A stretch of 64,000 bases of DNA from a virus (lineage: Duplodnaviria; Heunggongvirae; Uroviricota; Caudoviricetes). The DNA lies in the IMG/VR virus record IMGVR_UViG_3300032250_000070, positions 1-64,000 of that record, one strand, 5' to 3'. Positions 22,009 through 47,643 of the stretch are shown piece by piece (position 1 is the first letter of the stretch; the number at the start of each line of letters is the position of its first letter). The translations under genes were made by a program, and so were the position numbers. The notes below the pieces were generated by a model. The model made no database searches and was not told where the DNA came from. It saw only the letters and a program-made list of their open reading frames with translations.

Positions 22009-22977
22009 ATGGCATATTACTACAAATACAATTTTGTCTCACCTGAACCAATTTATTCAATTGTTAAGGAAGAGTTAAAATCTTATTTTGACACAGGGGC
22101 AGTGGATGATTTGCTTTTCCCTACTTATTTAGACAAATGTCTACAGAAGTTAGGTAGGTCAAGTTATGTTATTGCTGAACAGACATTGGATATTTCTGGT
22201 TATGAGGCTAGGCTTCCTGACAACTTCTTTGCTGTTAGAGAAGCTTGGATGTGTACAGAGCTTCCTCAACGTCCATACCAAACCCCTAACTCATTCTATT
22301 CTCAAGCTGCTTCTCAAACAACAATACAAATAAGTCCTATCATTAGTGGTGGGGTTCCTTGTGTAGAACCTAATTGTACAACAGGATGTCCTACATGTAT
22401 GCCTGATATCATCCAAGCAGTGTATAAAACCAATCAGCAAATAGCTAGAGGTATAAAAAAAGAATACTTATTAAAACCAGGTAATATATCTTGTCAAGGC
22501 AAATGTGATGTGAGTTATACAGATGCTTGGCAGTTTTATTCAACTGCCCCTCCTGTGCATGAATTCACTCCAGGAAGTGCTGGATATGATAGCTTTGATA
22601 TTAGAGATAATAAGTTTGTTACCAATTTTAGTTGTGGTGTGGTTCATATGATATTCTATGCTACAGACTATGATGCTGTTGGTAATCAATTAATTCCTGA
22701 TAACTATCGTGTAAGAGAGTTTATAGAAGCATTTATTAAGTTCAAGGTGTTTGAAACTTTAACAAATCAAACTAATGATGAAACCTTTAACCAACTTCAA
22801 ACTAAGTTAGCTTATTACAAACAGTTACATGATGAGGCATTCATTATGGCTAGTATTGAAATAAAGAAACAAGACGCATGGACTAAACAAAGAAGAGTAA
22901 GAAATGACTTACAACGCTTTGGACAATATGAATTACCAAATAGAAGCTCAAGATATGGCAGTGGATGGAACAGATAA
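22009..22977 (+). CDS. hypothetical structural protein (Cys-containing)
   Basis: 322 aa. Its 3' end overlaps the next giant ORF in the +1 frame. Confidence 0.5.
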   Translation: MAYYYKYNFVSPEPIYSIVKEELKSYFDTGAVDDLLFPTYLDKCLQKLGRSSYVIAEQTLDISGYEARLPDNFFAVREAWMCTELPQRPYQTPNSFYSQAASQTTIQISPIISGGVPCVEPNCTTGCPTCMPDIIQAVYKTNQQIARGIKKEYLLKPGNISCQGKCDVSYTDAWQFYSTAPPVHEFTPGSAGYDSFDIRDNKFVTNFSCGVVHMIFYATDYDAVGNQLIPDNYRVREFIEAFIKFKVFETLTNQTNDETFNQLQTKLAYYKQLHDEAFIMASIEIKKQDAWTKQRRVRNDLQRFGQYELPNRSSRYGSGWNR

Positions 22978-29753: not shown

Positions 29754-29757
29754 TATT

Positions 29758-30279: not shown

Positions 30280-30282
30280 ATA

Positions 30283-30864
30283 ATGGCTAACTGGTTAGAT
30301 AAATATGAACAAGGAGGATTAGTCTTAAAGAAAAAGACTAAGGATAACTATGGCAAACGAGAGAATGCCAATGCAGGACATTCCACTGCTGGCCCAGGTT
30401 GGGTTGGTGAAGGAACAACTAACAGAGGGTTTAACTACAATGGAGCATGGGGAGGCACTATGGAGATGGGTGGATCTATGCCAGGTGCTGTAGGTTTCAC
30501 GTACGCACGTGTGGTTGGCTCAGCTCCTGCTAATGGTAAGTATACAAAGAAGACAAAAGCAAGTGCTCAGAATGGTACAGAGATGAAATTCTACCAAGAA
30601 GGACTAGACTTCAAACCTAAGACTATATCTAAGAATGGTTCTGTGATTAAAGATGATATGGGACAATGGGCTCACCCAGGTGAGATAACACAGATAGGTT
30701 CTAATGAAATAACAATGAAGGGAGTTGAGTATCCTGTACTTGGTATATCTGATACAGGTGATAGGAAGATGATGTATCCTGGTAAGGATTATAAGTTTGA
30801 TGGTAATATGGTTACAGAATACCCACTGGCTCAAGATGGTGGCTGGTTAAACAAATATAAATAA
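30283..30864 (+). CDS. hypothetical Gly-rich protein with near-identical terminal motifs (NWLDKYEQGG ... DGGWLNKYK)
   Basis: 193-aa ORF. Confidence 0.45.
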   Translation: MANWLDKYEQGGLVLKKKTKDNYGKRENANAGHSTAGPGWVGEGTTNRGFNYNGAWGGTMEMGGSMPGAVGFTYARVVGSAPANGKYTKKTKASAQNGTEMKFYQEGLDFKPKTISKNGSVIKDDMGQWAHPGEITQIGSNEITMKGVEYPVLGISDTGDRKMMYPGKDYKFDGNMVTEYPLAQDGGWLNKYK

Positions 30865-33898: not shown

Positions 33899-36676
33899 AT
33901 GGCATCGTTTACTGATCAAATACAAACATTTAACCCTTACGTCTCCCAGGCTCCTTTGATAGAAGCTATGGTCGCTGTTGGCACTCAAAAGCAACAACAG
34001 TATGACCAAGGTGTGCAAAAGATTCAAGGGTATGTAGATAGCATTGCTGGTATGGATGTTGTTAATGACGCTGACAAAAAGTATTTACAGTCCAAGCTAA
34101 ATGACTTGGGTAGTAAGTTAAAGACTGTTGCAGCAGGAGACTTCTCTAACCAACAACTAGTTAACTCTGTTGGTGGTATGGCTACTCAGATTGTTAAAGA
34201 TCCTACAGTTCAGAATGCTGTATACTCTACAGCTAATTATAGAAAAGAATTAGCTAGATTACAGAAAGATGTAGAAGAAGGAAAGTCTAGTCCAGCTAAT
34301 ATTGAGTTCTTTAACAAAAGAGCTAACAGTTGGTTATCTTCTGATAAAGCTGGTCAAAAGTTTTCAGCAAGTTATATTCCTTATTTTGATGTACAGAAGT
34401 TTGCTAAAGAAACATTTGATTCTGTAAAGCCTGATGGTTTTACAATTGATCAAGTGTATGAAACAGATACTCAGGGTAATATCAAACTTGATAAAGCAGG
34501 TAGACCTATCTATTCTCCAACAATGAAAAGAATGGAACAAGAAGGTAGATTTCCAGAGAAGGTAAAACAAACTATAGAACAAATCTTCTCTGATAGTAGA
34601 GTGGGTCAACAATTAGATATTTCAGGCCAATATGAATATAGAGGTTACTCTCCAGAGATGTTAACTCAAAAAGTCAACTTACAAAAAGAAGGACTTATAT
34701 CTAAATATGATGAACAGATAAATGAACTTGCTTTACAAAAAGGTACAGGTAAGGATGTCCAAGCTCAGATAGATCAACTTGAGTTAAGAAAGAATAACAT
34801 TAGAAGTCAGTATGATGATATAATGACTGTAGCTCAAGATAATCCAGATGCTATCAGATCTCTTTTATATAAGGATGATGTTAAAGGTAGATTCACCACA
34901 ATGTTTGGTGAGATGAAAACTAAAGAAACTTTGATGAACAATCCAGGTTGGGAAGCTAACTTCAAGTTACAACAAGAAGCTAATGAACAATCTAGATGGG
35001 CTCAAGGAATGGCATGGGATGTTAAGAAGTTTAACATAGGATTATCAGAGGCAGAGAAAAATCGCAACTTACAAGTACTTCTTGCTCAAATGAAAGGAAC
35101 CAAAGGTAAAGGTGTTGATACTAATGGTGATGGTATTCCTGATGATTTTGGAGCAGGTGCTGGTTTTGAACAAGGTGATATGCCAGGTAATGTTGATCTT
35201 ATTGCTAGATTTGAATCAGAGTTAACTAATGCTGCAGATGACTTTACTAATGCTTCTGATAACTTTATTTGGAATGCAGCTATATCTAAAGTGCCTGGAA
35301 ACCAGGCTAAGCTTGATTCTATGATGAAGCAAGGAATTGGTAAAGACCAAGCTATTAAAAACTTACTTGATAATACAGCAGCTCAAAATAAAGAAACTCC
35401 AGAAAACTTTAGAGCTAGATGGGGAGATAAAGCTACAGTGGCTTATAATAATATGACTGCTGAACAAAAGAAAAGAAACCCAGATCTTCAAGATGCTTAT
35501 TATCTATATGGTGAATCAAGAAGAAACTATGATGTATTAAATACTGTTAAAACTAAAGTTAACGAGGTTACAGGAAATATACTAGGAAAGGATGTTGATA
35601 AGACAAAAGTAATTGAAGGAGTTAAACCTGTTACAGGTTTCATTAAAGGTAAACCTGTTCAACTTACTCCAGAAGACTTTTATGATATGGCAATTTATCT
35701 AAAAGGTAATGCCTCTTCTGCTGGATTCTTAAATGATAAAACTGCAAGAGAACAAGCTAAGAAAGCTGAAGCTAGATTAGACTTAAGAGGTAAATCAGAA
35801 TTATTACCTATATTATTAGAACAACAAGGTAAAACTAAAGGAGGACTTATAACAGGTGCTATAAGAGGAGTAAAAGCTTTAGCAAGTTTAGCAACAGCAG
35901 GAGGACCTGTTCCAAATATGGGTGCAATGAATCTTGTTGATTTATCTCAAGTTAATAAGATATATGATAAGTTAGGAGATGATTATGCAGGAGCTTTAAA
36001 AACAAAAGCAGATGTTGTAAAACAATACTATAACATTCAGCCAAACTTAAAAGCTGGTTTATTAACTGGAGATGCTGGTGATGATAAAGTTATGTTAGAT
36101 AAGTTAACAAGATATGCTGCTAATTATAACACAGCAGGAAAAAACCTTTCCCCTGACTTTAAAGCGTTTGCTTCTAATGTTGGTGGTAAAGATGTTACTT
36201 ATGAAGCACAAGTTATTACAGGTCCTGGAAGCAAACCAGTAGTAGAAATTGTAGCATATGGTGGAGAAGATAATAAGAGATTAGGTGGTATGATTGTAGC
36301 TGATGATGAGTCTACTAGACTTGGTATTAATCCTGCAACCTTGTATGAACCAAAGCAAGTAACTAATCTTAGAACTTATATCCAAGCAAATGGTGACCAA
36401 ACTTCTAAGGGAGATCCTAAAGAAAAGCAAACTTACATGCAAGGAGACAGTTATCTTAAGACTCCTAATTTTATAAACTTGAGAGGAAGTGGATATGATG
36501 CAGCTGCTAACATTACATATAAAAATGGTTTATATTATGCAAACATATTTGGAAGCGATGGCAGAAGATCAAACATAATGACTATGCCAGGTAGTCCAAA
36601 CTTGCAAGCTGTTCTTCAGAACTTAACAAATAACGTAAACACACAGTGGATTGAAGCACTTTTAACTGAAAGATAA
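33899..36676 (+). CDS. large virion-associated protein (925 aa), function unknown
   Basis: It is TAATG-coupled to the next giant ORF. Confidence 0.5.
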   Translation: MASFTDQIQTFNPYVSQAPLIEAMVAVGTQKQQQYDQGVQKIQGYVDSIAGMDVVNDADKKYLQSKLNDLGSKLKTVAAGDFSNQQLVNSVGGMATQIVKDPTVQNAVYSTANYRKELARLQKDVEEGKSSPANIEFFNKRANSWLSSDKAGQKFSASYIPYFDVQKFAKETFDSVKPDGFTIDQVYETDTQGNIKLDKAGRPIYSPTMKRMEQEGRFPEKVKQTIEQIFSDSRVGQQLDISGQYEYRGYSPEMLTQKVNLQKEGLISKYDEQINELALQKGTGKDVQAQIDQLELRKNNIRSQYDDIMTVAQDNPDAIRSLLYKDDVKGRFTTMFGEMKTKETLMNNPGWEANFKLQQEANEQSRWAQGMAWDVKKFNIGLSEAEKNRNLQVLLAQMKGTKGKGVDTNGDGIPDDFGAGAGFEQGDMPGNVDLIARFESELTNAADDFTNASDNFIWNAAISKVPGNQAKLDSMMKQGIGKDQAIKNLLDNTAAQNKETPENFRARWGDKATVAYNNMTAEQKKRNPDLQDAYYLYGESRRNYDVLNTVKTKVNEVTGNILGKDVDKTKVIEGVKPVTGFIKGKPVQLTPEDFYDMAIYLKGNASSAGFLNDKTAREQAKKAEARLDLRGKSELLPILLEQQGKTKGGLITGAIRGVKALASLATAGGPVPNMGAMNLVDLSQVNKIYDKLGDDYAGALKTKADVVKQYYNIQPNLKAGLLTGDAGDDKVMLDKLTRYAANYNTAGKNLSPDFKAFASNVGGKDVTYEAQVITGPGSKPVVEIVAYGGEDNKRLGGMIVADDESTRLGINPATLYEPKQVTNLRTYIQANGDQTSKGDPKEKQTYMQGDSYLKTPNFINLRGSGYDAAANITYKNGLYYANIFGSDGRRSNIMTMPGSPNLQAVLQNLTNNVNTQWIEALLTER

Positions 36677-39600
36677 TGCCAGATAAAATAGTAAACTTAG
36701 GGGGTACAATTGAGGGTTTTCCAAATACACCTGTAGTAAATACAGATATTAGACAATCTAAAGGACCTACTCCTTCTATAACTGATTTGTATACACAAGG
36801 ATTAGGCACTGTTAAACCAGCAGGTATAGAGGCTATTCCTACGTCCAATCTATATGTTGGAGAAAGATATGCTGCTGTTAGACCTGGTGAAGACTTAGAA
36901 GAAATGTATGGTCAGCAACAATCTAGTGCAGATAAATGGAAGAACGGTGCTATTAAGTTTTTTGGTACTGCAACTGCTTCTCTTGTTTCTGGTACAGCTG
37001 GTCTTGTTTATGGTGTGGGTTCTGCTATAAAAGATGGAAAGTTTTCTAGTCTTTATAATAATGATTTGACTAGAAAGATGGATGAGACATTTATCCAAGG
37101 TTTAGACAATACTGCTCCTAACTATTATACAACAAAAGAAAGAGATGCTGAGTGGTGGTCTCCTGATAACATATGGACTGCTAACTTCTTCTCAGATAAG
37201 CTGATGAAGAACTTAGGTTACACAGTGGGTGCTTTAGCAGGTGGTGTGGGTTGGGCTAAGTTATTAAAAACATTAGGTACAACAAATGCATTAGTTAGAG
37301 GTGGGTATGGTTTAGAAGCTGTAACTGCTGCAGAAAATGCAATGCAAGCTGTTCCTAAAGTAAATCAATTTGCTGCATTTGATGGTGCAGTTAATTCTAT
37401 AGCTCAGAAATATTTAAAGACTCCTTTAGCTAAGGTATTAAGTGATCCTGAAAGAATTGTTGCTTCTACAATGGGTACGTTTGGTGAAGCTTCATTAGAG
37501 GCTTTGCAAAATGCAAATGAGTTTAGAAAAGGAGCAATAGAACAATATGTAAGAAAGTATGGTAAAAATCCTACAGGTGCTGACCTAGAAGAGATTGATG
37601 AGTACGTAAGTAGTGTTGGTAACTTCACTTGGGGAATGAATACTTTATTATTAACTGGCACAAACTATATTCAACTTCCAAAGATATTAGGTTCTTCTAA
37701 TAGAGCTGATAAGATGTTACTTAATCAGATTGAAAAGAAAGGACAAGGTGCTGCCTTCACAGAAGTGATGCCAGCTACTAAGTTTGGAAAAGTGTTACAA
37801 AGATCAAAGGATGTTTCAAAACTATTCTTTGCTCCATCAGAAGCATTTGAAGAAGGTGCACAGTTTGCCATCCAAGTAGGTACAAATGATTATTTCAATA
37901 GAGCCTTTAGAAACAGACAAGGTACACAAGACTTCTTGACTGCTCTAAGTGGTACTATGGGTAATGTACTTGGTAAAGGTGTAGAAGAGACTATATCTAC
38001 TAAAGAAGGTTTAGAAAGTATATTGATTGGTGGCTTGTCTGGTGGATTACAACAAGCTAGAAATACAATTAGAGAGCAAGGTGTATTAGGTACAGGAGGA
38101 TTAAGAAGAGCTAATACAGATATTGCTCTAGGTGCTTTAAATCAAAGTAATGTTGAAACTGTACTTGGAGACTATGCTAGATATATTGGTATTGGTATTG
38201 GTTCTCAAAAGGCTAGACAACAAGCTATTGTAAATAATGATAAGGTTTCTGAGAAAGACTTTGAGAATGACTTCACTCTATCTTACATTATGCCAAGAGT
38301 TAAGTATGGTAAGGTGGATTCTATTGGAGAAGAACTTTCATACTACTCTCAACAATCATCTACAGAAGAAGGCTTCCAACAATTGGTTGCAAATGGTATT
38401 GTAAATGCTGGTGAAAGTAGAGAAGATTTCTTAGCTAGAATTACAAATGTTGGAAGAATCACTAAGAACATTAATGATCTTTATGATTCATTAGGTAGAA
38501 AATATAGTAATCAACCTGGCTATACATCAGAGATCTTAGATAAGATGGTGTATTCTTTAGCCAAGGTAGGTAGTTATGATGTACGTATTCCTGAAGTAAA
38601 CAGTCTATTGTTCACAGCAGGAGTTAATACACAAGACATATTACAAAGTGTTATCAAGGAAAACAAACCTAACAAAGAAGCTGTAGAAGAATCATTGAAA
38701 CAAATCAATGAGATGGATGTAACTTCTGAGACTAAGGATGATCTTAAGACAGCATTGTCTGACATCATTGAGTTAGGCTTACGTAGGAAAATGTTTATTG
38801 ATGAGTATGATGCTATCAAGGCTAATCCTACAGAATTCCAATTCAAGCCTGATGTAGAGTTTGGTGCTACAGAAGAGGTGCCTGTAACAGTGTTAGAAGG
38901 AGAAGAGGAGGCAGTTACTCCAGAAGGACAGATTGAATTATTCCCTACAAAGAAAGAAAGAAAACTAGAGGTTGGTAAAGAATACTTCTTGAAACAACCT
39001 GTTAGAAAAGAAGAGAATACACTTACCCTAGCACCTAAGATTAAGGTGTTATCTCAAACATTGGGTGGTGAGTTTGAAGTGCAACTACCTAAAGGTAATG
39101 TCAGCTTCTTGACTCCTGAAGATTTTGCAACATTAGATTTGGCAGATGAAGGTGCAGAATCACCAGAGTTGAAAGACATCATGGATGCTGCTATTGATAA
39201 CGTATTATCTAAACCAGAGTTTGCAGATGTAACACTTCCTGAGGGAGAAGATAAGTTAGCATCTCTTAACTCTTTAAACAATGCACAATTAGTTGATGCT
39301 GTTGAGACTGAGTTCAATGCACTTTCAGAAACATATTTGAAAGAACAAGCTGATCTTCAAGCTAATAGAGATAAGATGAACGCTGTAGCAGATAAGATTA
39401 AATCTGCACAAACTGATATTGCTGCTACATCTGGAGTTGTCCCAACAGGCAACAATGATGAAGACTTAATGAATACTCCTAAGGAGACTCCTAAGAAAGA
39501 TGTAGGTATATTGTTTACCTCTTCTACGTCTGCTTCTGTTGACTGGGAGAAAGTATTAGCTCCTAACGTTACACGTTATAATGAGTTTATAAACAAGGTA

Positions 39601-42600
39601 AAGACCTTTAAGAATAATAAGAACATCAAAGCTATTGTTGTCACTCAGAAACAAGAAGCTGCATTAGGACTAGCTGGTCTTGGTGAACTATCTTTTAGAG
39701 AAGGTAACTTTGATACAGATTTATTGAATGATCCTATTGAAGGATTCATTGGTCTTGTGTTTGTAGAAGATAAGAAAGGAGAAAGACAATTTGTAGATAA
39801 GGATGGTAATCCTATTGGTAAGGTGGGTGAGCAAGTAGAATTAAACAAGGTGGTATTTACAAGCATGCCTGCTGCTAAACTAACTAATAGTAAAGGTGAA
39901 CCTAGAAATAGAGCTGGTCAAGAAGAACAAGCTGCATTAGAGTTAGCTGCATACGAAGTATATCGTAAAGACTTAAGAGAAGCTGCTGAAGAAGAATATC
40001 CAATATTTAACTTCACTCCATCTAAAGGTATTGCTATTACAGATGACGTTAAGAAATCTGTAGGTGGTGTTCTTATTCCTGAGAATCAAATTACTACACA
40101 ACAAGTTTTGACTGTTGTGACTAAAGGAGGTGTTGACCATGTAGATGGTATAACTTATAACTTTCCTAATGGCAGACCTGTATTCCAAGACCAAGATACA
40201 TTAGAATATCTAAACAACTCTAACTTAACTAAAGACCAAGCAAGTGCAGTTTATAATGTACTTAAAGCTATGTCTAATGAAGCTAAGCAACAAATTGCTG
40301 CTAAGAAGCCAGTTAAGTTTAATGAGATATATAAGAGATTTTTACAAGGTGTTACATTCTATACCAACGCAGATGCTGTAGCAAAGGGTGTGGGTGAAGG
40401 AAGTGGCAATCGTATTTATATAGAGGGATCTGTATTACACATTGGAACTAATACATATGACTTTGCTAATATAGACAAACAAGAAATTCCTATTGTAAGT
40501 GATTTACAAGGAGTGTTTCATAATGTAAATAGCTTCACAGTTAACTTAGGACTAGGTGAACCATTTGTAGAGTTTTATGTAGACAATAATAAATTACAAC
40601 AAAGAAGTTGGAAGAACTATCAGTCTTATTTGTTAGCAAGTAAGAACCCTGATGGATCTGGACGTATAGCTCCTTTGACAACAAATGTGGTTAAGCCTAC
40701 AGTGGCTGTTCCTTATACACACAAACAAAAGTACATCATTCTAAATGGCTTAGAACTTCCAAAACAATCTGTAGTTAAACCTGCAGAACCTGGAGTGGAG
40801 ACATATAAGTCTAATGTAGGAAACATTACATATAAAGTTACTACAGATGAGAAAGGTGACTTCACTGTAGAGTTGGTTGGTGAGAATCCAAACGTTCAGA
40901 AGATTGTAGACAGTCCAGAATTAATGGCTGTAGCTACACAACAACTTAAAGACTTAGGCAAGTTTGATGAGTTAGATCAACCTGTTGAGACTGCTGCTAA
41001 GTTTGCTGTTGAGTTCATTACAGCTAAGCTTGTTAAAGATAAAGCAGAGGTGGCTCCTGTTGAAGAAAAACCTGAACAAACAGAACAACCTAAGAACATC
41101 AACATTGGTGATGCTGAATATAGAAGAATTGGTAGAACAGATGTAGATAGAATAAGTGATACTGAGCTTGCGTTGTTTAAAGAATGGCACGCTAAGAATG
41201 CTAAAACTATTCCTTACGAAGTGTTAGAGAATGTTATTAACATCAATAGCACAGAGAAGGCATGGGGAGCATTTGAGAATGGTGTGGCTAAGTTCTTTAA
41301 AGGAGCTCAAAGAGGTACAGAATACCATGAGATATTTGAAGGTATCTGGAAAGGTTTCTTATCTCAAGGAGAACAACAATCTATCCTTGATGAGTTCAAA
41401 TCTCAAACAGGTTCTTTCTTAGATAGAGAGTCTGGTAGAAGAATAGATTATGCAAACGCTACAGATCAACAAGCTAAGGAAAGAATAGCTGATGACTTTG
41501 CTGAGTTCAGACTTGGTAAGTTACCTGCTAGAAACCTTACAGAAAAGATTAAGAACTTCTTCAAAGCTATTATGGATTTCTTCAAATCATTTGTAAATAA
41601 ACCTACATTGAAAGAAGACTTATTCAAAGCTATAGATACAGGTGAGTTTGCAGATAGAACCCTTCCTGAAACTATTAAGAATGAAGCTGCTGAGTATAGA
41701 AAGATTGAAGGTATAAATGCTAAGCAAACTAATGAGTTTGTACAAGACATTACAGCTAGAGTATTTGGTGAGATATTTGCCAACAACAGCTCTTTGTTTA
41801 ATATAGAAGATATTACAGCTTCTGATTTATTTAATAGAATCAAGGAGAAATACATACAGAACAATGTTATAGGTGACAATCCTGCAACACAAATCACTGA
41901 GAATCAATACGTTAAGTTAGTTGAAAGAACTAAAGAGTTCTTGAAGACATACAGAATTGAGTTTGATGAAGATAGTAGAGTTACAGTTAATGATGATGGA
42001 GCTAATAGAAAAGACTATGCAGCTGAAGCATTCACTGTTAATTTCAAGAAGTCTTCTCCATACGCTGTTAAGTTATTGATTGGTACTTTGATTAAGACTA
42101 AAGGTTTGAATCAAGAAGCAGTTGCAACACTTAAACGTCCTGAAGCTGATACGTCTAGTATTGGTGGACTTAAGTTGTTACCCTTCAATCAAGCGTTCAC
42201 AACTTTGATGAATAGACTTTCTAACACAAGAAGTATCCCTGAGTTTGTGTCTAAGCTACATGAGTTAGCTAAACAGAACAGTGACTACGTTAGATTGTTT
42301 GAGCGTTTAGGTGGTAACTTAACCACTGGTAAGATTGACTTTAATTCTTATAAACCTCATGACATTAGATTGTTTACTAACTTCTATCAAGTGTTTACAA
42401 AACAAAGACCTGATGCGTTAGCTATGTTCATGGATGGTAATAATGTATACTCTGCTCCTGCTAATCAGGCTTCTGCTATTGCTGCAACAAGATCTGAGTG
42501 GATAGAGAATATGAAGACTAAGGCTGAACAGCCTGGTTCTATTATTAGTTATGATGAGAAGAAGAAAATCTATACAGTTAAGAAAGAGGATTACAACATT

Positions 42601-45600
42601 AAGACTCCTCAAGATAAGGTAGAGTTCTTAGCACAATTGGGTATTGAGTTCCCAATGGCTGTATACAATAAGGTGAAGAACAAGAAAGCTTTCTCTGATG
42701 CTGTAAGTGGTATTAAGTTAGGTCTTAGTAAGACAGATGAGTTGATGAGCTTTGGTGGTAGAAAGCTTGGTATTCGTACACAGTTAAATGAGTTAGCTAA
42801 GTTATATACAATAGCTGCTTCTCCTGCAGAAGACAGCACGTACTTTGGTGTAGATGGTAATAGAATACAATCTGACACAGATGCAAACTATCCTTCTTTA
42901 TTAGAATACGTATTTAACTCTTCTGACACGTTAGAAGAATTGAAGCAGAACATGCCTCAGTTAAATGATGTATTCTCTACAAACAGCCAAGTGTTAAAGC
43001 TAGGTGGTAAGTTCTTTGATGAAGAAGGTAATAGAATTGCTGAGATCAAGTTACAATACATACAGGGAGTTAAGGATGTTGTAGACAATGAAGGACAATC
43101 AACATCTTCTCTAAGCATAGGTGATAGGTACATTACAGAAATGAACCAAAACCTAGATGGTAGATATTATGTATTAATCCCTGCAGATAGTTCTAGAGAG
43201 TGGATGATGGACTTAGGTAATACAATTGCCTACACAGATGTAGCTGCTGGTAATGCAGATAAGCTATTCACTGATACATTCTTAGGATACTTAAAGGATG
43301 AGATTAAGTTAGCTCAAGATAGTACTAACAGAACTAAGCTTAGAAACGTAGGAGATAAAGCTACAGAGCTTAGATTCTTAAAGGATATGCTTCCTGCTAC
43401 ATTATTAAATAAGATACAAAAGCTTATTGATAACAGAGCATCAGAAGAAAGCATTAATGATTTTATTAATACAAATCGTGAAGATTTAGATGCAGCTATA
43501 TTAAAGTCATTAGATAACACTGTTGTTAAGACTAGACAAAACTTAGTGGAGACACAAAAGGTTATTGCTAGTAAAGAAGCAGGTAGTTTCTTAATGCCTG
43601 AGTTAGAGAACAGATTCACTGAAAAGGCTGGCTTGAATAAGTTAGGTTTGGCAGATCAAGATGTTAATAATGTTATCAAGTTTGCTAATGCTAACTACAT
43701 GATTAACAACGTGGAGTTCCACAAGATCTTATTTGGTGATCCATATCAGTTTGAGGTTAAGGGCAATCAGTTAGATGAGACTAAGCGTATTAAGTCTTTC
43801 TTATCTCCAAGAAGAATCACTGTAAACTCTGATGAGTTTAACAACTTATTTAATAGTGAATACAATACAGTGGCTGGTGTTCAATTAACACCTAATGATT
43901 ATGGATATCATGAGCATAAGAACTTTGCTAAGACATTCACAGCTGCTGACGTAAATGTAACAGATAGTTTCTATCCTAAATCAAATGAAGCAGATGCTGC
44001 TTCTTGGATTATGGATGCTGCATATAAAGAGGTAAAGTTAAAGAATGGTCAATGGTCAGATGAGGCTGAAGATTGGCATCAATGGCAAATGGCTTATACA
44101 AGACAAAATGTTCCTGGCTACAAATATTCTAGTGATGCTCTTCGCAAACATGATGAAGCGTTAGTAGAACAACCTGAACCTTTATATGTTACAGATGTAT
44201 TGAAACCTATTGTATCTGGTAACAAGTTTGGTAAAGCAAACTTTGATCTAGTTTTGGATAAGTTTTCACAAATGCCTTTGTACTATAAAGCTGTAGAAGG
44301 AACTAACCTTGGCAAGTTCTATGAGAAGATGTTTAAGGAAGGTTATGACTATGCTGTAGTAGTTTCTGGTAGAAAGGTGGGTGCTGAGAAGTTACACAAA
44401 CTATATGTAGATGGTAACTTTAATGAAGAAGCATTTAACAATACAATCAATGTTGGCTGGGATACTTATGGTATCCAAGTAGAGAATAGCTATGACAAAG
44501 ATAGCAAACAAACTCTTGGTTCTCAGTTAACTAAGCTTGCCACTGTTGACTTATACAGTGATGGTAAGGCTAATAATGAAGCTGCTAGAAAAGCAGTAGA
44601 GAAGAACACTGAGGTGTTGAAAGAGATGTTACTTAATGGATATCAAGAGTTATTAAGAAAGCTTGGTATTGAAGATCTAGGTGACAACTTTGTTGTTAAA
44701 GACAAAACTGTTGTAGCTGATACATTAAGACAAGAAATGCTTAAGAGAGAAATGTCTGAGAATGGTATTGATAGTATATCTATTGATCCTGAAACTGGAG
44801 AGTTTTATATGCCATTCGAAGCATCTACAAACTACATTCAGATCAAGAACATCTTGTATTCAATTGTAGACAAGTCTATTGTATCTCCTAAGGTGAGTGG
44901 TTTCCCTGCTGTACAGGTTCCTGTAACAATGTGGGAGAAAGCTGGTGAGTCTAGAGGAGAAGGATTAAAGAAGTCTGCTCTTAAGTTCTATAGCAAAGAA
45001 GATAAATACATGGAGGTATATCTTCCTGCATGGTTCAAGAAACAATTACCTAAGGGTAAAACTGATGAAGAGTTAATTGAGTTATTAAAAGATTCAGAGA
45101 TATTAAAAGGTATAGGATTTCGTATCCCAACACAGGGCTTAAACTCTGCAGAGGTATTTAAAATCAAAGGTTTCCTACCTGAGTTTATGGGTAAGACAAT
45201 TGTGGTTCCTTCTGAGATTACTACAAAGGCTGGATCTGACTTTGACATAGATAAATTAAATCTATACTTAAAGAATATATATGTAACTCCTTCTGGTGAG
45301 ATTAAGTCTGTACCATTCTTTGGATATGGAGATCAAGCTAAAGAGGCTATCAAGAAGTTTATTCTTGAAGAAGATATCAAAGCAATGTTAGATATCAATA
45401 GTGAAATCTCTGGAAGCAGAGTGGATGACTATGGTACATTAGCAGATAAGCTTTACAAACAATCTCTTGAGAATGAATACTTTAGATCTATTGAAGAGTT
45501 ATTAACTCTACCAGAGAACTTTGATAGATTGACTTCTCCTAATACAGACAAGACTCTTAAAGAGATTGCTGATGATTTAGATACATTAAGAGGAGAGAAT

Positions 45601-47643
45601 GAAGGTGATATCAAGAATAGATTGCTAGATAGAAACTACATGACTAATCAAAGACATGCGTTCCTAACTGGTAAGAAATGGATTGGTATTGCTGCTGTAA
45701 ACATTACAGGTAATTCCCTTGCACAAAAGACAGATGTGTTTGTAGAGAATCCACAAACAGAAATGGCTTTAGAACATAATAAGTTTAAAGATGGTGGCTT
45801 TGAGCATATATCACTTTCTGGCATGTTAGACCAGGATGGTAAATACATCTCTGATAAGTTATCAATGTATGCGAATGCTTTTGTAGATATTGCTAAAGAC
45901 CCATACATCATGAAGATCATCTATAGCAATAGAGTTGTAGGTACATTCATGTTGTTAGAGCGTGCAGGTGTTCCTATGAAGACAGTGGCTATGTTTATGA
46001 ACCAGCCTATTGTAAGAGAACACATTAAGAACTTAGATGCTAATGGTGCTCCTAGATATGCAATAAGCAATGTTGATTATATTAAACAAGCTGGGATAAA
46101 CTTCCCTGCAAGTACAAAAGCCATCCAAGCAGCTACAGTTGCTGAAGGTAACTTTGAAGATAATATATCTTCTTATGCTAAGAATACAATGACTGAAGCT
46201 CAGAATGCTGAACAACACAAGATATTAAATGAGTTCTTATCTTATGTTGCCCTAGCTGATGAGAACTTCAACTTTACACAGGCTATCAATTATGATACTA
46301 GTACATTTAGAAATGCAGATGATTTCTATAGAAAAGAAATGATGACTGATCGTGCACAAGAGAAAGGAGCTATTAGCTCTCCACAAAAGGTGTTAGACAG
46401 TTCTTTCTTAGGTACAGAAAAGACTGTGTTAGATCAATCTAATACAGCGTTGGGTGCTATCCTTAAGTTTAACCAATCTGAATTCAGAGGAGTGCTTGAG
46501 AATACTATTCAACAATATGCTGAGAAGTTTTACATGGCTAAGGATACATTCAATAGAGTGGCTGAGAAAGCTACAGCAAGCCTACTTGATTATATTATTC
46601 AAACAGGTAGAAAGAACGCATTGAATATCAGTGAGTTATCTTTTGGTCCAGAGTCTGTAGCAGTGAAGTTAGAAGAAGCTAAACAAAAATATCCTAATGT
46701 ACAAATACTACAAGACTTAGTTGTAGTGTCTGCAGAAAGACCAAACAGTCCTAAGACTATTAAGCTTAAAGCTAATGTCAAAGAAGCTTATGATGAGAAT
46801 ATGTATATTGGTATGATGAGAGAGTTGAGAGACAATCCAGACACTAACCAACTATACAAAGATCTTATCAAAGTAGCTATCATACAAGGTACATATCAAT
46901 CTGCTGTATCTATCAAGAATATTATTCCTATTGAAGACTATTCTGCAGAGGTAAAGAATATTGTAAACACAGCTGTAGTAGATACAAACGTTCAAGAGTT
47001 TGCTAATAACAATTGGTTCCAAAGAAACAATTGGAAGAACCCAGATATCACTCCTGCTATTGCTCCTTATATTGATGAAGAGTCTGTAACAGAGATTGGT
47101 GAGTTTAAGAATCAAATAGTTTCTCAATACAAGTTTACAGGATTTGTAGAAATCCCAGAGATTGGAATTGGTGAAAATGATAAACTTGTACTATCTGTAG
47201 GAGAAAGATCCAAAGCTGCTGGCTATGATATGATAACTATTCCACGCATTATCACTACTAAGTATGGTGAGATGATTGACTTCATGACTGGTAAGACTAT
47301 TACAAGAGCAGGATATGCAGAATTAAAAGCTAAGGGTGATCCTATTATTGGACAAATGTTTGGTTATCAGAAAGTTAAGTTTGTAAGTGGTGAAGCGTTG
47401 AGAACATATAAAGGAAAGTTTGTATTCAAGATGGTAAACTTATATGGAGATGGACAATTCACTTCTGAATATTATAAATTCAACAAACTTTCTGAGCTAG
47501 ATAATAATACAGGTAAGGTGAACAATGAAATCCCTAATTCAGAAATCATCAAATACTTTACAGGTATTGTTGAAAATGAAGTATCTTCACAGCCTGAAAC
47601 AGAAACAGATCTAAGTACTAAAGACTTTAAATGTAAATTCTAA
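36676..47643 (+). CDS. giant 3655-aa protein; candidate virion-packaged multidomain protein, possibly a crAss-like two-barrel RNA polymerase (DFDID motif)
   Basis: Single uninterrupted ORF of 10,968 nt. DxDxD motif SDFDIDK at nt 45238-45255. The size and position (after the tail genes, in a run of huge ORFs) parallel crAss-like and N4-like virion RNAP/ejection proteins. Confidence 0.55.
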   Translation: MPDKIVNLGGTIEGFPNTPVVNTDIRQSKGPTPSITDLYTQGLGTVKPAGIEAIPTSNLYVGERYAAVRPGEDLEEMYGQQQSSADKWKNGAIKFFGTATASLVSGTAGLVYGVGSAIKDGKFSSLYNNDLTRKMDETFIQGLDNTAPNYYTTKERDAEWWSPDNIWTANFFSDKLMKNLGYTVGALAGGVGWAKLLKTLGTTNALVRGGYGLEAVTAAENAMQAVPKVNQFAAFDGAVNSIAQKYLKTPLAKVLSDPERIVASTMGTFGEASLEALQNANEFRKGAIEQYVRKYGKNPTGADLEEIDEYVSSVGNFTWGMNTLLLTGTNYIQLPKILGSSNRADKMLLNQIEKKGQGAAFTEVMPATKFGKVLQRSKDVSKLFFAPSEAFEEGAQFAIQVGTNDYFNRAFRNRQGTQDFLTALSGTMGNVLGKGVEETISTKEGLESILIGGLSGGLQQARNTIREQGVLGTGGLRRANTDIALGALNQSNVETVLGDYARYIGIGIGSQKARQQAIVNNDKVSEKDFENDFTLSYIMPRVKYGKVDSIGEELSYYSQQSSTEEGFQQLVANGIVNAGESREDFLARITNVGRITKNINDLYDSLGRKYSNQPGYTSEILDKMVYSLAKVGSYDVRIPEVNSLLFTAGVNTQDILQSVIKENKPNKEAVEESLKQINEMDVTSETKDDLKTALSDIIELGLRRKMFIDEYDAIKANPTEFQFKPDVEFGATEEVPVTVLEGEEEAVTPEGQIELFPTKKERKLEVGKEYFLKQPVRKEENTLTLAPKIKVLSQTLGGEFEVQLPKGNVSFLTPEDFATLDLADEGAESPELKDIMDAAIDNVLSKPEFADVTLPEGEDKLASLNSLNNAQLVDAVETEFNALSETYLKEQADLQANRDKMNAVADKIKSAQTDIAATSGVVPTGNNDEDLMNTPKETPKKDVGILFTSSTSASVDWEKVLAPNVTRYNEFINKVKTFKNNKNIKAIVVTQKQEAALGLAGLGELSFREGNFDTDLLNDPIEGFIGLVFVEDKKGERQFVDKDGNPIGKVGEQVELNKVVFTSMPAAKLTNSKGEPRNRAGQEEQAALELAAYEVYRKDLREAAEEEYPIFNFTPSKGIAITDDVKKSVGGVLIPENQITTQQVLTVVTKGGVDHVDGITYNFPNGRPVFQDQDTLEYLNNSNLTKDQASAVYNVLKAMSNEAKQQIAAKKPVKFNEIYKRFLQGVTFYTNADAVAKGVGEGSGNRIYIEGSVLHIGTNTYDFANIDKQEIPIVSDLQGVFHNVNSFTVNLGLGEPFVEFYVDNNKLQQRSWKNYQSYLLASKNPDGSGRIAPLTTNVVKPTVAVPYTHKQKYIILNGLELPKQSVVKPAEPGVETYKSNVGNITYKVTTDEKGDFTVELVGENPNVQKIVDSPELMAVATQQLKDLGKFDELDQPVETAAKFAVEFITAKLVKDKAEVAPVEEKPEQTEQPKNINIGDAEYRRIGRTDVDRISDTELALFKEWHAKNAKTIPYEVLENVININSTEKAWGAFENGVAKFFKGAQRGTEYHEIFEGIWKGFLSQGEQQSILDEFKSQTGSFLDRESGRRIDYANATDQQAKERIADDFAEFRLGKLPARNLTEKIKNFFKAIMDFFKSFVNKPTLKEDLFKAIDTGEFADRTLPETIKNEAAEYRKIEGINAKQTNEFVQDITARVFGEIFANNSSLFNIEDITASDLFNRIKEKYIQNNVIGDNPATQITENQYVKLVERTKEFLKTYRIEFDEDSRVTVNDDGANRKDYAAEAFTVNFKKSSPYAVKLLIGTLIKTKGLNQEAVATLKRPEADTSSIGGLKLLPFNQAFTTLMNRLSNTRSIPEFVSKLHELAKQNSDYVRLFERLGGNLTTGKIDFNSYKPHDIRLFTNFYQVFTKQRPDALAMFMDGNNVYSAPANQASAIAATRSEWIENMKTKAEQPGSIISYDEKKKIYTVKKEDYNIKTPQDKVEFLAQLGIEFPMAVYNKVKNKKAFSDAVSGIKLGLSKTDELMSFGGRKLGIRTQLNELAKLYTIAASPAEDSTYFGVDGNRIQSDTDANYPSLLEYVFNSSDTLEELKQNMPQLNDVFSTNSQVLKLGGKFFDEEGNRIAEIKLQYIQGVKDVVDNEGQSTSSLSIGDRYITEMNQNLDGRYYVLIPADSSREWMMDLGNTIAYTDVAAGNADKLFTDTFLGYLKDEIKLAQDSTNRTKLRNVGDKATELRFLKDMLPATLLNKIQKLIDNRASEESINDFINTNREDLDAAILKSLDNTVVKTRQNLVETQKVIASKEAGSFLMPELENRFTEKAGLNKLGLADQDVNNVIKFANANYMINNVEFHKILFGDPYQFEVKGNQLDETKRIKSFLSPRRITVNSDEFNNLFNSEYNTVAGVQLTPNDYGYHEHKNFAKTFTAADVNVTDSFYPKSNEADAASWIMDAAYKEVKLKNGQWSDEAEDWHQWQMAYTRQNVPGYKYSSDALRKHDEALVEQPEPLYVTDVLKPIVSGNKFGKANFDLVLDKFSQMPLYYKAVEGTNLGKFYEKMFKEGYDYAVVVSGRKVGAEKLHKLYVDGNFNEEAFNNTINVGWDTYGIQVENSYDKDSKQTLGSQLTKLATVDLYSDGKANNEAARKAVEKNTEVLKEMLLNGYQELLRKLGIEDLGDNFVVKDKTVVADTLRQEMLKREMSENGIDSISIDPETGEFYMPFEASTNYIQIKNILYSIVDKSIVSPKVSGFPAVQVPVTMWEKAGESRGEGLKKSALKFYSKEDKYMEVYLPAWFKKQLPKGKTDEELIELLKDSEILKGIGFRIPTQGLNSAEVFKIKGFLPEFMGKTIVVPSEITTKAGSDFDIDKLNLYLKNIYVTPSGEIKSVPFFGYGDQAKEAIKKFILEEDIKAMLDINSEISGSRVDDYGTLADKLYKQSLENEYFRSIEELLTLPENFDRLTSPNTDKTLKEIADDLDTLRGENEGDIKNRLLDRNYMTNQRHAFLTGKKWIGIAAVNITGNSLAQKTDVFVENPQTEMALEHNKFKDGGFEHISLSGMLDQDGKYISDKLSMYANAFVDIAKDPYIMKIIYSNRVVGTFMLLERAGVPMKTVAMFMNQPIVREHIKNLDANGAPRYAISNVDYIKQAGINFPASTKAIQAATVAEGNFEDNISSYAKNTMTEAQNAEQHKILNEFLSYVALADENFNFTQAINYDTSTFRNADDFYRKEMMTDRAQEKGAISSPQKVLDSSFLGTEKTVLDQSNTALGAILKFNQSEFRGVLENTIQQYAEKFYMAKDTFNRVAEKATASLLDYIIQTGRKNALNISELSFGPESVAVKLEEAKQKYPNVQILQDLVVVSAERPNSPKTIKLKANVKEAYDENMYIGMMRELRDNPDTNQLYKDLIKVAIIQGTYQSAVSIKNIIPIEDYSAEVKNIVNTAVVDTNVQEFANNNWFQRNNWKNPDITPAIAPYIDEESVTEIGEFKNQIVSQYKFTGFVEIPEIGIGENDKLVLSVGERSKAAGYDMITIPRIITTKYGEMIDFMTGKTITRAGYAELKAKGDPIIGQMFGYQKVKFVSGEALRTYKGKFVFKMVNLYGDGQFTSEYYKFNKLSELDNNTGKVNNEIPNSEIIKYFTGIVENEVSSQPETETDLSTKDFKCKF

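What the first reader, a model, noticed from the sequence alone, without database searches (positions are those of the whole stretch)
36676..47643. 3655-aa single ORF with DFDID motif: candidate virion-packaged two-barrel RNA polymerase / ejection megaprotein
Four consecutive ORFs of 975, 925, 3655 and 1666 aa (about 21.7 kb, one third of the window) follow the tail genes with TAATG couplings. This is a layout reminiscent of crAss-like and N4-like phages, whose virions carry giant proteins injected with the DNA. The 3655-aa ORF contains SDFDIDK (nt 45238-45255). This is a DxDxD triad like the catalytic motif reported for crAss-like phage RNA polymerases (YonO/QDE-1-type double-psi beta-barrel).

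If confirmed this would be one of the largest phage RNAP-containing polyproteins. If not, it remains an unusually large cargo protein of unknown function.
Basis: partly seen in the sequence, partly recalled or inferred. Interest (0 to 1): 0.65.

Follow-up and report, generated by a model that had tools for sequence, protein, structure and literature searches.

The report
Giant crAss-type virion RNA polymerase gene
This 3,655-residue gene is a clear relative of the RNA polymerase that crAss-like phages are known to pack into their particles and inject with their DNA; it is a typical member of a large, already described family and is shorter than most of its relatives.

Summary

- **The ORF and motif:** ORF 36676-47643 (+) is real: 3,655 aa, 408 kDa. 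Its single DxDxD (DFDID, aa 2855-2859) is the catalytic motif of a crAss-type single-chain two-barrel RNA polymerase.
- **Sequence evidence:** It matches phi14:2 gp66 (PDB 6VR4) at E=1.6e-22, with GSDFDIDK aligned residue for residue.
- **Architecture:** The ORF fuses a crAss001 gp47 / phi14:2 g067-like cargo module (aa 1 to about 1645, ending in a zincin-like HExxE domain) to the gp66/gp50-like polymerase.
- **Neighbours:** The flanking ORFs match the known crassvirus order: muzzle, C1, C2, RNAP block, gp49/g065-like protein.
- **How common it is:** The same fusion is uninterrupted in all 18 related viral contigs (3,657-4,384 codons). Of 148 representative homologues, 130 are longer than this ORF (median 4,190 aa, maximum 5,650). 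The claim "one of the largest" therefore fails.
- **What is inferred:** Virion packaging, ejection and early-gene transcription rest on homology only.
- **Minor novelty:** Two paralogous zincin-like domains carry His-to-Glu variant motifs (HExxE and EExxH).

The parts
22904..28423 (+). 1,839-aa tail-tip protein resembling the crAss001 muzzle protein gp44. It marks the end of the tail genes upstream of the cargo block.
   Evidence: PHROG 37948 (E=3e-92) and 15100 virion structural protein. blastp to crAss001 gp44 E=1.5e-5. 32-34% identity to the Lbo-JY46 1,654-aa protein. gp44 is the muzzle protein (PMC10172136).
30885..33812 (+). 975-aa ORF, candidate counterpart of cargo protein 1 (crAss001 gp45). 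It has one transmembrane-like, glycine-zipper segment at aa 145-168 (nt 31317-31388). Assigned by position and features, not by sequence homology to gp45.
   Evidence: Hydrophobic segment. Weak Gly-zipper hit at aa 287-324. Syntenic orthologues in L003, L004 and L005; the L003 one carries an SLT lytic transglycosylase domain. gp45 has a TM helix at 136-158 (PMC10172136).
33899..36676 (+). 925-aa ORF, candidate counterpart of cargo protein 2 (crAss001 gp46) by position. No recognisable domain.
   Evidence: No Pfam or PHROG hits. Conserved syntenic orthologues at 35-43% identity in L003, L004 and L005, and 29% identity to the Lbo-JY46 845-aa protein.
36676..41034 (+). Giant ORF aa 1-1453: N-terminal module like crAss001 gp47 / phi14:2 g067 ('RNAP-associated' cargo protein). 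The conserved core is aa ~64-820 and the rest is variable.
   Evidence: blastp aa 99-718 to gp47 109-818, E=7e-20. tblastn hits to 'putative RNA-polymerase subunit' genes of gut crassviruses. It is a stand-alone 1,808-aa gene in L003; 43 database homologues are listed as 0.7-2.2-kaa proteins, many of them contig fragments.
41035..41124 (+). Linker-like segment with few hydrophobic residues (aa 1454-1483, KDKAEVAPVEEKPEQTEQPKN...). It lies at the position where L003 and L005 separate the two modules.
   Evidence: Hydrophobicity scan. Module boundaries in L003 and L005 map to aa ~1340-1440.
41131..41610 (+). Zincin-like domain with a variant motif (aa 1486-1645). T-x-Y-H-E is invariant, and HEIFE at aa 1551-1555 (nt 41326-41340) gives HExxE instead of HExxH. 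It is homologous to the C-terminal HExxH domain of crAss001 gp47.
   Evidence: blastp aa 1529-1684 to gp47 2135-2304. Alignments. H or E at the fourth position in 31 versus 105 representatives. Zincin fold not confirmed.
41611..43641 (+). Giant ORF aa 1646-2322: N-terminal, non-catalytic part of the polymerase module. Very divergent.
   Evidence: Profile hit to cr108_1 gp054 1786-2322, E=3e-33. Marginal collinear hit to crAss001 gp50, E=0.02. No hit to gp66.
43642..46023 (+). Two-barrel catalytic core (aa 2323-3116), corresponding to gp66 residues 851-1671.
44188..44460 (+). Approximate first double-psi beta-barrel (beta-like; aa ~2505-2595), with near-invariant K2510, K2529 and S2564-G-R-K2567-V-G2569.
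44461..44910 (+). Connector domain between the two barrels (aa 2596-2745), corresponding to gp66 1095-1238.
   Evidence: Pairwise mapping from gp66 landmarks. Landmark residues are from the gp66 paper.
44911..45300 (+). Approximate second double-psi beta-barrel (beta-prime-like; aa ~2746-2875), carrying the catalytic DFDID at aa 2855-2859 (nt 45238-45252).
   Evidence: TKAGSDFDIDKL aligns to gp66 TKTGSDFDIDKM, residues 1361-1365. The motif is present in all 47 close homologues that cover the site (45 DFDID, 1 DFDVD, 1 GADFDID) and in 132 of 148 representatives. Strands flank the motif in the model.
45628..45720 (+). Bridge-helix equivalent (aa 2985-3015), corresponding to gp66 1529-1559.
   Evidence: Alignment to gp66. 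Helical in the model.
45844..45960 (+). Trigger-loop equivalent (aa 3057-3095), corresponding to gp66 1598-1636. The motif NAFVD-x-AKDPYI is conserved with gp66.
   Evidence: Alignment to gp66.
46024..47640 (+). C-terminal region of the polymerase module (aa 3117-3655). It is conserved in the clade and its function is unknown.
   Evidence: Homologues P0044-P0085 align through to about aa 3630-3655. blastp to cr108_1 gp053 reaches aa 3432.
47643..52643 (+). 1,666-aa ORF, orthologue of crAss001 gp49, cr108_1 gp052 and (by position) phi14:2 g065, the 'RNAP-associated' virion protein. Its N-terminal zincin-like domain (aa ~140-320, nt 48060-48602) has the variant motif EEAMH at aa 204-208 (nt 48252-48266). 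There is a weak PD-(D/E)XK signal at aa 481-626.
   Evidence: blastp to cr108_52 E=3e-24 and to gp49 E=1e-6. Motif alignment with gp65 HEIMH and Lbo-JY46 HEFMH. hhalign against the giant ORF's HExxE domain: probability 83%, E=9e-6. PDDEXK_1 E=0.026, below threshold.

Best explanation
What it is: The 3,655-aa ORF is the virion RNA polymerase gene of an uncultured, environmental crAss-like phage. It is a single polypeptide with two modules. The N-terminal ~1,645 aa correspond to the 'RNAP-associated' cargo protein that is a separate gene in crAss001 (gp47) and phi14:2 (g067). This part ends in a zincin-like domain whose motif reads HExxE. The C-terminal ~2,000 aa are a gp66/gp50-type single-chain two-barrel RNA polymerase. 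Its two double-psi beta-barrels are joined by a Connector. The Mg-binding DFDID sits on the second barrel and conserved lysines sit on the first, followed by a bridge helix and a trigger loop.

How it most likely works (inferred from characterised homologues): The gene is expressed late with the structural genes. The protein is packed into the capsid cargo zone together with the products of the 975-, 925- and 1,666-aa ORFs. On infection it is partly unfolded and extruded through the tail ahead of or with the DNA. It then refolds in the host cytoplasm and transcribes the early phage genes independently of the host polymerase. The fused protein may be cut at the linker (aa ~1454-1483) by one of the two zincin-like domains, but that step is speculative.
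For: Shown here:
- Direct sequence homology to the solved phi14:2 gp66 polymerase (6VR4): E=1.6e-22, with the catalytic motif, bridge helix and trigger loop aligned.
- GSDFD[IV]DK is present in all 47 close homologues that cover the site and in 132 of 148 distant representatives.
- The N-terminal part matches crAss001 gp47, including its HExxH domain, and the downstream ORF matches gp49 and cr108_1 gp052.
- The gene order muzzle, C1-like, C2-like, RNAP block is the same as in crAss001, phi14:2 and cr108_1.
- The fusion is continuous in all 18 independent IMG/VR relatives and in most of 148 representatives.

From the literature:
- gp66 is a virion-packaged DNA-dependent RNAP that transcribes early genes (bioRxiv 10.1101/2020.03.07.982082).
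- gp45, gp46, gp47, gp49 and gp50 were detected in crAss001 virions by mass spectrometry, and a cargo zone with ejection by partial unfolding was proposed (PMC10172136).
- Fused polyproteins had already been noted.
Against: - No experimental data exist for this phage. Packaging, ejection, template specificity and activity are all inferred.
- The N-terminal ~680 aa of the polymerase module (aa 1646-2322) show no detectable similarity to gp66, so the self-inhibiting Cleft-blocking domain of gp66 could not be located.
- Neither zincin-like domain has a canonical HExxH. The zincin fold could not be confirmed, so proteolytic processing is unsupported.
- The counterparts of C1 and C2 are assigned by position and a TM-like segment only.
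- TerL is closest (40%) to an unclassified cyanophage rather than to classified Crassvirales, so formal taxonomic placement is open.
Confidence: 0.88

Rival explanations
1. The giant protein is a true polyprotein. After synthesis, in the capsid or after ejection, it is cleaved near aa ~1450-1650 into a gp47-like protein and a free ~2,000-2,200-aa polymerase. The cut is made by its own HExxE domain or by the EExxH domain of the neighbouring 1,666-aa protein. This rivals the view that it acts as one intact 408-kDa chain.
For: - The same two parts are separate genes in crAss001, phi14:2 and L003.
- A linker-like segment sits at the junction.
- Conserved zincin-like domains lie next to the junction and in the neighbour.
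- Drobysheva et al. proposed cleavage of fused polyproteins.
- Iyer et al. 2017 proposed the same role for MPTase domains fused to N4-type vRNAPs (PMC5512222).
Against: - Both motifs lack one His ligand (HExxE, EExxH).
- No sequence or fold evidence for a zincin was obtained.
- No cleavage site is known.
- The fusion is strictly maintained in hundreds of lineages, which is also compatible with function as a single chain.
Confidence: 0.4
2. The polymerase is RNA-dependent or dual-specificity, like QDE-1 and the eukaryotic RNAi polymerases, and makes RNA from RNA templates rather than transcribing phage DNA.
For: QDE-1 and plant RDR2 are among the closest non-phage structural matches. gp66 is structurally closest to QDE-1 according to its authors.
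Confidence: 0.04
3. The polymerase is not packaged. It acts as an intracellular (non-virion) phage RNAP for middle or late genes, like the phiKZ and AR9 non-virion enzymes.
For: The phiKZ and AR9 non-virion RNAP subunits appear among the structural matches.
Against: - The gene lies inside the structural/cargo operon, directly after the muzzle, C1-like and C2-like genes.
- Orthologues in phi14:2 and crAss001 are detected in virions.
Confidence: 0.05
4. The ORF is an assembly or sequencing artefact, or the DFDID is a chance motif in a large structural or ejection protein with no polymerase function.
For: - A bare DxDxD is expected by chance about 0.9 times in a protein this long.
- Some database relatives are called as separate genes.
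- Pfam and PHROGs give no hit.
Against: - 18 independent contigs carry the same continuous ORF.
- P(open frame) is about 1e-127.
- The motif aligns to the gp66 catalytic site within a 790-residue homologous core.
- Apparent splits in L004 and L005 are a single in-frame TAA and a -1 frame change at an A6 run.
Confidence: 0.01

Closest known systems
Cellulophaga phage phi14:2 gp66, virion-packaged DNA-dependent RNA polymerase (PDB 6VR4; Drobysheva et al. 2021)
   Different: Only about 22-23% identity. gp66 is 2,180 aa and a separate gene from g067, whereas here the g067/gp47-like module is fused in frame. The N-terminal ~680 aa of the polymerase module, and hence the Cleft-blocking domain, are not recognisably similar.
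Uncultured crAss-like phage cr108_1 (Steigviridae, Pipoluvirus) gp054 + gp053
   Same: This is the best-covering deposited relative. It has the same fused architecture (N-module + HExxH domain + polymerase; 2,967 + 798 aa), followed by a 1,714-aa orthologue of the window's 1,666-aa ORF.
   Different: About 23% identity. The cr108_1 gene is interrupted exactly inside DFDID, after the first Asp, by a 290-nt gap, while the window's ORF is uninterrupted. cr108_1 has a canonical HExxH and the window has HExxE. It comes from the human gut rather than an environmental clade.
Bacteroides phage crAss001 cargo block gp44-gp50 (Bayfield et al. 2023)
   Same: The components are the same: muzzle (gp44), C1 and C2 cargo proteins, gp47 (matching giant ORF aa 99-718 and 1529-1684), gp50 (DFDVD catalytic subunit, matching aa 2593-3113) and gp49 (matching the 1,666-aa ORF). 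The crAss001 proteins were detected in virions by mass spectrometry.
   Different: In crAss001, gp47 and gp50 are separate genes on opposite strands. C1 and C2 show no detectable sequence similarity to the window's 975- and 925-aa ORFs.
Coliphage N4 / Schitoviridae virion RNA polymerase (~3,500 aa)
   Same: It is a functional analogue: a giant capsid-packaged, ejected RNAP that transcribes early genes. It is also fused to zincin-like MPTase domains (Iyer et al. 2017, PMC5512222).
   Different: The enzyme class is unrelated. N4 vRNAP has a T7-like single-subunit (right-hand) catalytic domain, not two double-psi beta-barrels. No sequence or fold similarity was found.
Neurospora QDE-1 and other two-barrel RNAPs (YonO, P23-45 gp96, cellular beta/beta-prime)
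   Different: The similarity is only at superfamily level (about 10% identity). Those enzymes have Gly at the fourth motif position (DxDGD), have different accessory domains and are not virion cargo (except P23-45 gp96).

Membership tests
crAss-like virion RNA polymerase (phi14:2 gp66 / crAss001 gp50 family) | Significant sequence similarity to gp66 across the catalytic core | tested here: met
   phmmer against PDB: 6vr4_A E=1.6e-22, two collinear stretches (aa 2323-2870 and 2925-3116). tblastn: 137 phage records, all crAss-like. blastp to crAss001 gp50 E=2e-26.
crAss-like virion RNA polymerase (phi14:2 gp66 / crAss001 gp50 family) | DFDxD catalytic motif aligned with gp66 D1361/D1363/D1365 and conserved in orthologues | tested here: met
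   DFDID at aa 2855-2859 aligns exactly. Present in all 47 close homologues that cover the site (45 DFDID, 1 DFDVD, 1 GADFDID). 110 DFDID, 21 DFDVD and 1 DFDFD among 148 representatives.
crAss-like virion RNA polymerase (phi14:2 gp66 / crAss001 gp50 family) | Two double-psi beta-barrels in one chain joined by a ~140-residue Connector | tested here: met
crAss-like virion RNA polymerase (phi14:2 gp66 / crAss001 gp50 family) | Bridge helix and trigger loop equivalents | tested here: met
   gp66 1529-1559 and 1598-1636 align to aa 2985-3015 and 3057-3095, with conserved NAFVD.AKDPYI.
crAss-like virion RNA polymerase (phi14:2 gp66 / crAss001 gp50 family) | N-terminal Cleft-blocking (self-inhibiting) domain (gp66 residues 196-233) | tested here: inconclusive
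   A profile of aa 1646-2330 finds cr108_1 gp054 (E=3e-33), finds crAss001 gp50 only marginally (E=0.02) and does not find gp66. The region was not modelled.
crAss-like virion RNA polymerase (phi14:2 gp66 / crAss001 gp50 family) | Location in the late 'transcription/cargo' block next to g067/gp47-like and g065/gp49-like sequences, downstream of tail genes | tested here: met
crAss-like virion RNA polymerase (phi14:2 gp66 / crAss001 gp50 family) | Physical presence in virions and delivery into the host | not testable with these tools
   Known only for the homologues phi14:2 gp65-67 and crAss001 gp47, gp49 and gp50.
crAss-like virion RNA polymerase (phi14:2 gp66 / crAss001 gp50 family) | DNA-templated, rifampicin-resistant RNA synthesis of early genes | not testable with these tools
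   Shown for gp66 only.
Order Crassvirales (taxonomic membership of the phage) | Conserved crAss-type TerL, portal, MCP and structural module with monophyly in phylogenies | tested here: inconclusive
   TerL, portal and MCP hit PHROGs 6681, 6547 and 11589. Best deposited TerL is the unclassified Leptolyngbya phage Lbo-JY46 at 40%, then Cellulophaga phi4:1 at 31%, and classified crassviruses at about 27%. No phylogeny was made. No nucleotide match to any deposited phage.
N4-like (Schitoviridae) virion RNA polymerase | T7-like single-subunit right-hand polymerase domain | tested here: not met
   No N4 or T7-type chain appears among PDB sequence hits or fold hits. All polymerase matches are two-barrel enzymes.
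Zincin-like metallopeptidase (MPTase) domain | HExxH metal-binding/catalytic motif | tested here: not met
   No HExxH anywhere in the four ORFs. The giant ORF has HEIFE (HExxE) and the 1,666-aa ORF has EEAMH (EExxH), at positions where crAss001 gp47, cr108_1, L005 and phi14:2 gp65, Lbo-JY46 have HExxH.
Zincin-like metallopeptidase (MPTase) domain | Zincin fold, or profile similarity to known zincins | tested here: inconclusive
   No peptidase family found in Pfam, by single sequence or by alignment members. PDB profile search negative. AlphaFold model poor (pLDDT 60) and its Foldseek search empty. The zincin label for gp65 comes from the literature.
QDE-1-type cellular RNA-dependent RNA polymerases | DxDGD motif with Gly at the fourth position and a QDE-1-like domain set | tested here: not met

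The most novel reading that the evidence does not exclude
The two paralogous zincin-like domains of the cargo block carry complementary His-to-Glu replacements: HExxE in the giant ORF and EExxH in the neighbouring gp49/g065-like protein. HExxE is the majority state across the family (105 of 136 representatives with the motif). The most novel reading not excluded is that these form a distinct, still active metal-site variant. This could be a carboxylate-rich site, or a pair that works only in trans. It would control processing or activation of the ejected polymerase polyprotein, so that the fusion plus this domain acts as a built-in switch keeping the enzyme inactive until it is inside the host.
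Probability: 0.12. Interest if true: 0.5.

Novelty: new member of a known kind. Interest (0 to 1): 0.25.

Why it matters
It gives a secure annotation for a 408-kDa ORF that Pfam and PHROGs leave blank, and it identifies the window as the virion module of an environmental crAss-like phage.

It also shows that, in a large uncultured clade, the gp47-like cargo module and the two-barrel polymerase are normally one gene. At least 643 clusters at 50% identity have E of 0.001 or better, and typical lengths are 3.7-5.6 kaa. Such single-chain fusions, and the H/E alternation in the adjacent zincin-like motif, could help experiments on how crassvirus polymerases are packaged, kept inactive and activated.

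None of this changes the current picture of crassvirus biology.

Tried and rejected
- **Library scans:** Pfam and PHROG scans of the four giant ORFs returned nothing usable.
- **Database search:** A full-length search of the large protein database timed out and was replaced by three sub-queries.
- **Deposited phages:** Megablast of the ORF against deposited phages found no match.
- **Fusion as an oddity or artefact:** Gene calls in the database suggested separate genes. This idea was rejected after all 18 viral contigs showed continuous ORFs, and after the L004 and L005 'splits' turned out to be one in-frame TAA and a -1 frame change at an A6 run.
- **Canonical protease:** No HExxH is present in the block.
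- **Zincin assignment of the HExxE domain:** All tests were negative or uninformative: a small HMM against gp65, Pfam, a PDB profile search, an AlphaFold model with pLDDT 60 and Foldseek.
- **N-terminal homology to gp66:** Only cr108_1 was found for aa 1646-2330.
- **Internal repeats:** None in the giant ORF.
- **Intron at 28423-28887, next to the HNH gene:** No Rfam hit. The gap holds a 142-aa ORF.
- **tRNAs:** None in the window.
- **Cultured model:** Lbo-JY46 shares the tail/cargo synteny but has no DFDID protein in that block.
Full report
**Observation**

The ORF list and my own translation confirm a 3,655-codon ORF at 36676-47643 on the + strand. It is preceded by ORFs of 975 aa (30885-33812) and 925 aa (33899-36676) and followed by one of 1,666 aa (47643-52643). 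Together these span 21.76 kb.

TAATG overlaps link the 925/3655 and 3655/1666 pairs. The first pair, 975/925, is separated by 86 nt.

The protein has exactly one D-x-D-x-D, DFDID at aa 2855-2859 (nt 45238-45252). An open frame of this length has P of about 1e-127 at the window's composition. The bare DxDxD triad is not significant: 0.89 occurrences are expected and 56% of shuffles have one. DFDxD appears in 4.3% of shuffles. The motif had to be validated by its context.

**What the window is**

PHROG scans identify a crAss-type structural module:
- terminase large subunit at 2523-4565
- portal at 4565-7147
- major head protein at 9116-10669
- collagen-like tail fibres
- an 1,839-aa virion protein at 22904-28423

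The 1,839-aa protein resembles the crAss001 muzzle protein gp44. The window has no nucleotide match to any deposited phage. Its TerL is closest to the unclassified Leptolyngbya phage Lbo-JY46 (40%), then Cellulophaga phi4:1 (31%), then classified crassviruses (about 27%).

**The polymerase**

Pfam and PHROGs are silent on the giant ORF. A phmmer search of PDB sequences finds a single real hit: 6VR4, the virion RNA polymerase gp66 of the crAss-like Cellulophaga phage phi14:2, at E=1.6e-22. ORF residues 2323-2870 and 2925-3116 align to gp66 863-1390 and 1484-1671. TKAGSDFDIDKL aligns to gp66 TKTGSDFDIDKM, which contains the catalytic 1361-DFDID-1365.

tblastn with aa 2301-3655 hits 137 phage records, all crAss-like.

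I collected homologues, aligned 38 of them (A1) and predicted the structure of aa 2290-3160. The model has mean pLDDT 79.7 and pTM 0.78.
- **Foldseek against the PDB:** 6VR4 first (E=2.4e-25, TM 0.63), then QDE-1 (5e-4 and 1e-3), then bacterial beta-prime, phiKZ and AR9 RNAP subunits and plant RDR2.

Mapping the gp66 landmarks gives:

| Element | Residues |
|---|---|
| Connector | 2596-2745 |
| DFDID | 2855-2859 |
| Bridge helix | 2985-3015 |
| Trigger loop | 3057-3095 |

Near-invariant K2510, K2529 and SGRK2567VG lie in the beta-rich segment just upstream of the Connector, where the first (beta-like) barrel is expected. The first-barrel boundaries are inferred.

The motif is present in all 47 close homologues that cover the site, as 45 DFDID, one DFDVD and one GADFDID. 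It occurs as DFD[IVF]D in 132 of 148 distant representatives.

**Architecture: a fusion**

gp66 is 2,180 aa, so about 1,500 residues needed explaining.
- aa 99-718 match crAss001 gp47 (E=7e-20).
- aa 1529-1684 match the C-terminal HExxH region of gp47.
- aa 2593-3113 match gp50, the DFDVD-bearing subunit.
- The downstream 1,666-aa ORF matches crAss001 gp49 and cr108_1 gp052. By position it corresponds to phi14:2 g065, the 'RNAP-associated protein'.
- The deposited phage cr108_1 has the same fused layout (gp054 2,967 aa + gp053 798 aa).

The giant ORF is therefore a gp47/g067-like module (aa 1 to about 1645) fused to a gp50/gp66-like polymerase (aa about 1646-3655). A linker-like segment lies at aa 1454-1483.

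The gene order muzzle, [small genes + HNH], 975 aa, 925 aa, giant ORF, 1,666 aa reproduces gp44, gp45 (C1), gp46 (C2), gp47..gp50 of crAss001. The 975-aa ORF has one TM-like segment at aa 145-168. This parallels the TM helix of gp45 at 136-158. That assignment is positional, not based on homology.

**Is the fusion real, and is it unusual?**

Database gene calls first suggested that relatives split the protein. Inspection showed otherwise:
- L004 has only a single in-frame TAA in collinear sequence.
- L005 has a -1 frame change next to an A6 run.
- L003 has genuinely separate genes, with seven small genes in between.

A scan of IMG/VR returned 18 related contigs, 40-94% identical and up to 124 kb long. 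Every one has a single uninterrupted ORF across the junction. The 16 complete ones are 3,657-4,384 codons long, and each contains both the YHExx[H/E] domain and DFDxD.

An exhaustive HMMER search of 1.84 billion cluster representatives with aa 1441-2640 found 643 proteins at E of 0.001 or better, and 395 at 1e-30 or better. Of the 148 new proteins among the 150 best hits:
- the median length is 4,190 aa
- 136 are at least 3,000 aa
- 130 are longer than this ORF
- the maximum is 5,650 aa
- 122 carry both motifs

The fusion is therefore the normal state of a large clade, and this ORF is at the short end. [quoted passage not shown] It also describes fusion of gp66 with its neighbours into 'a single huge polyprotein' and a transcription block of large multidomain proteins with variable boundaries (PMC7886860).

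**Mechanism**

By homology, the protein is made late and stored in the capsid cargo zone. It is then extruded through the tail in a partly unfolded state and refolds to transcribe early genes. None of these steps can be tested here.

Whether the fusion is cleaved is open. Drobysheva et al. suggested that the zincin-like domain of gp65 may process such polyproteins. Iyer et al. made the same suggestion for MPTase domains fused to N4-type vRNAPs.

In this window there is no canonical HExxH at all.
- **In the giant ORF:** the gp47-type domain reads T-E-Y-H-E-I-F-E, that is HExxE, at aa 1551-1555. E occupies that position in 105 representatives and H in 31.
- **In the 1,666-aa ORF:** the gp65-type domain reads L-T-E-E-A-M-H, that is EExxH. 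The same is true in crAss001 gp49, cr108_1 gp052 and L005. phi14:2 gp65 and Lbo-JY46 have HExxH.

A profile-profile comparison indicates that the two domains are paralogues: hhalign probability 83%, E=9e-6, 152 columns, with the motifs in register. I could not confirm a zincin fold or a profile relationship to known zincins. Protease activity therefore remains conjecture.

**Verdict**

The feature is a new, divergent member of a well-described family: the crAss-like virion two-barrel RNAP within the conserved cargo/transcription block. The size claim does not hold. The only mildly new points are two: the gp47-RNAP fusion is the rule in a large environmental clade, and the two zincin-like domains are paralogous and carry H/E variant motifs.

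Noticed in passing
L002 (cr108_1, NC_055878.1) 15839-16130: In the deposited gut phage cr108_1 the polymerase gene is split exactly inside the catalytic motif. gp054 ends after the first Asp of DFDID and gp053 resumes at FDID, with a 290-nt gap between them. This could be an intron or another insertion in the active-site codons. Yutin et al. 2021 mention disruptions inside DxDxD for Zeta-group phages.
   Followed up: no
L004 11136-11138; L005 ~7655-7750: Two relatives that are annotated as having separate N-part and polymerase genes differ from a continuous ORF only minimally. L004 has one in-frame TAA (window EKIKNFFKAIMDFFKSF against L004 QKVL*FFKGIMNFFKSF). In L005 the polymerase ORF is in the -1 frame and overlaps by 43 nt, just after an A6 run (GGTGTTAAAAAAGCA). 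This may be sequencing error, read-through or slippage, or a way of making both short and fused products.
   Followed up: partly
window 41131-41610 and 48060-48602: Two paralogous zincin-like domains (hhalign probability 83%) carry complementary His-to-Glu variants: HEIFE in the giant ORF and EEAMH in the 1,666-aa ORF. HExxE is the majority state among 148 representatives (105 E against 31 H).
   Followed up: partly
window 28448-30864: Between the muzzle-like gene and the cargo genes lie a 142-aa ORF, a 288-aa ORF (28887-29753), an HNH endonuclease (29758-30279; PHROG 59, E=2e-37) and a 193-aa ORF. The C-terminal half of the 288-aa ORF matches the C-terminus of the single 1,654-aa muzzle-like protein of Lbo-JY46 and PHROG 15100. 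This looks like a detached or duplicated C-terminal domain next to a homing-type endonuclease. No Rfam intron hit.
   Followed up: partly
window 19539-20789: A 416-aa 'DNA repair exonuclease' (PHROG 704, E=3e-45) sits in the middle of the tail/virion structural genes.
   Followed up: no
window 15914-17860 and 52663-56679: Two collagen-like tail-fibre genes (648 and 1,338 aa) hit the same PHROGs (5073, 1806, 6320). Both lie in the only regions of raised GC (0.41 against about 0.35). The larger one sits downstream of the polymerase block, not with the other tail genes.
   Followed up: no
L007 (Leptolyngbya phage Lbo-JY46, PP438436.1 62000-111000): The closest deposited TerL (40%) belongs to a cultured cyanophage. 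It shares the muzzle-like, 925-like and weakly the N-module-like and 1,666-like genes in the same order. No DFDID-bearing protein was seen in that block. Its 2,748-aa protein carries two HExxH motifs.
   Followed up: partly
L003 3201-7262 and 19734-25427; 71,345-bp contig carrying P0095 and P0064: There are domain variations in relatives. The 975-like protein of L003 carries an SLT lytic transglycosylase domain, and its polymerase protein has a NADAR hit. On one 71-kb contig the polymerase is called as two proteins that split at about aa 2513-2552 in window numbering, near the first barrel/Connector boundary.
   Followed up: no
L006 (crAss001 NC_049977.1) gp49/gp50: By BLAST, the crAss001 homologue of the crystallised phi14:2 gp66 is gp50 (DFDVD at 1483; E=1e-49), and gp49 matches phi14:2 gp65. 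The crAss001 structure paper refers to the solved homologue as that of gp49. This is probably a numbering slip worth bearing in mind when transferring annotations.
   Followed up: partly
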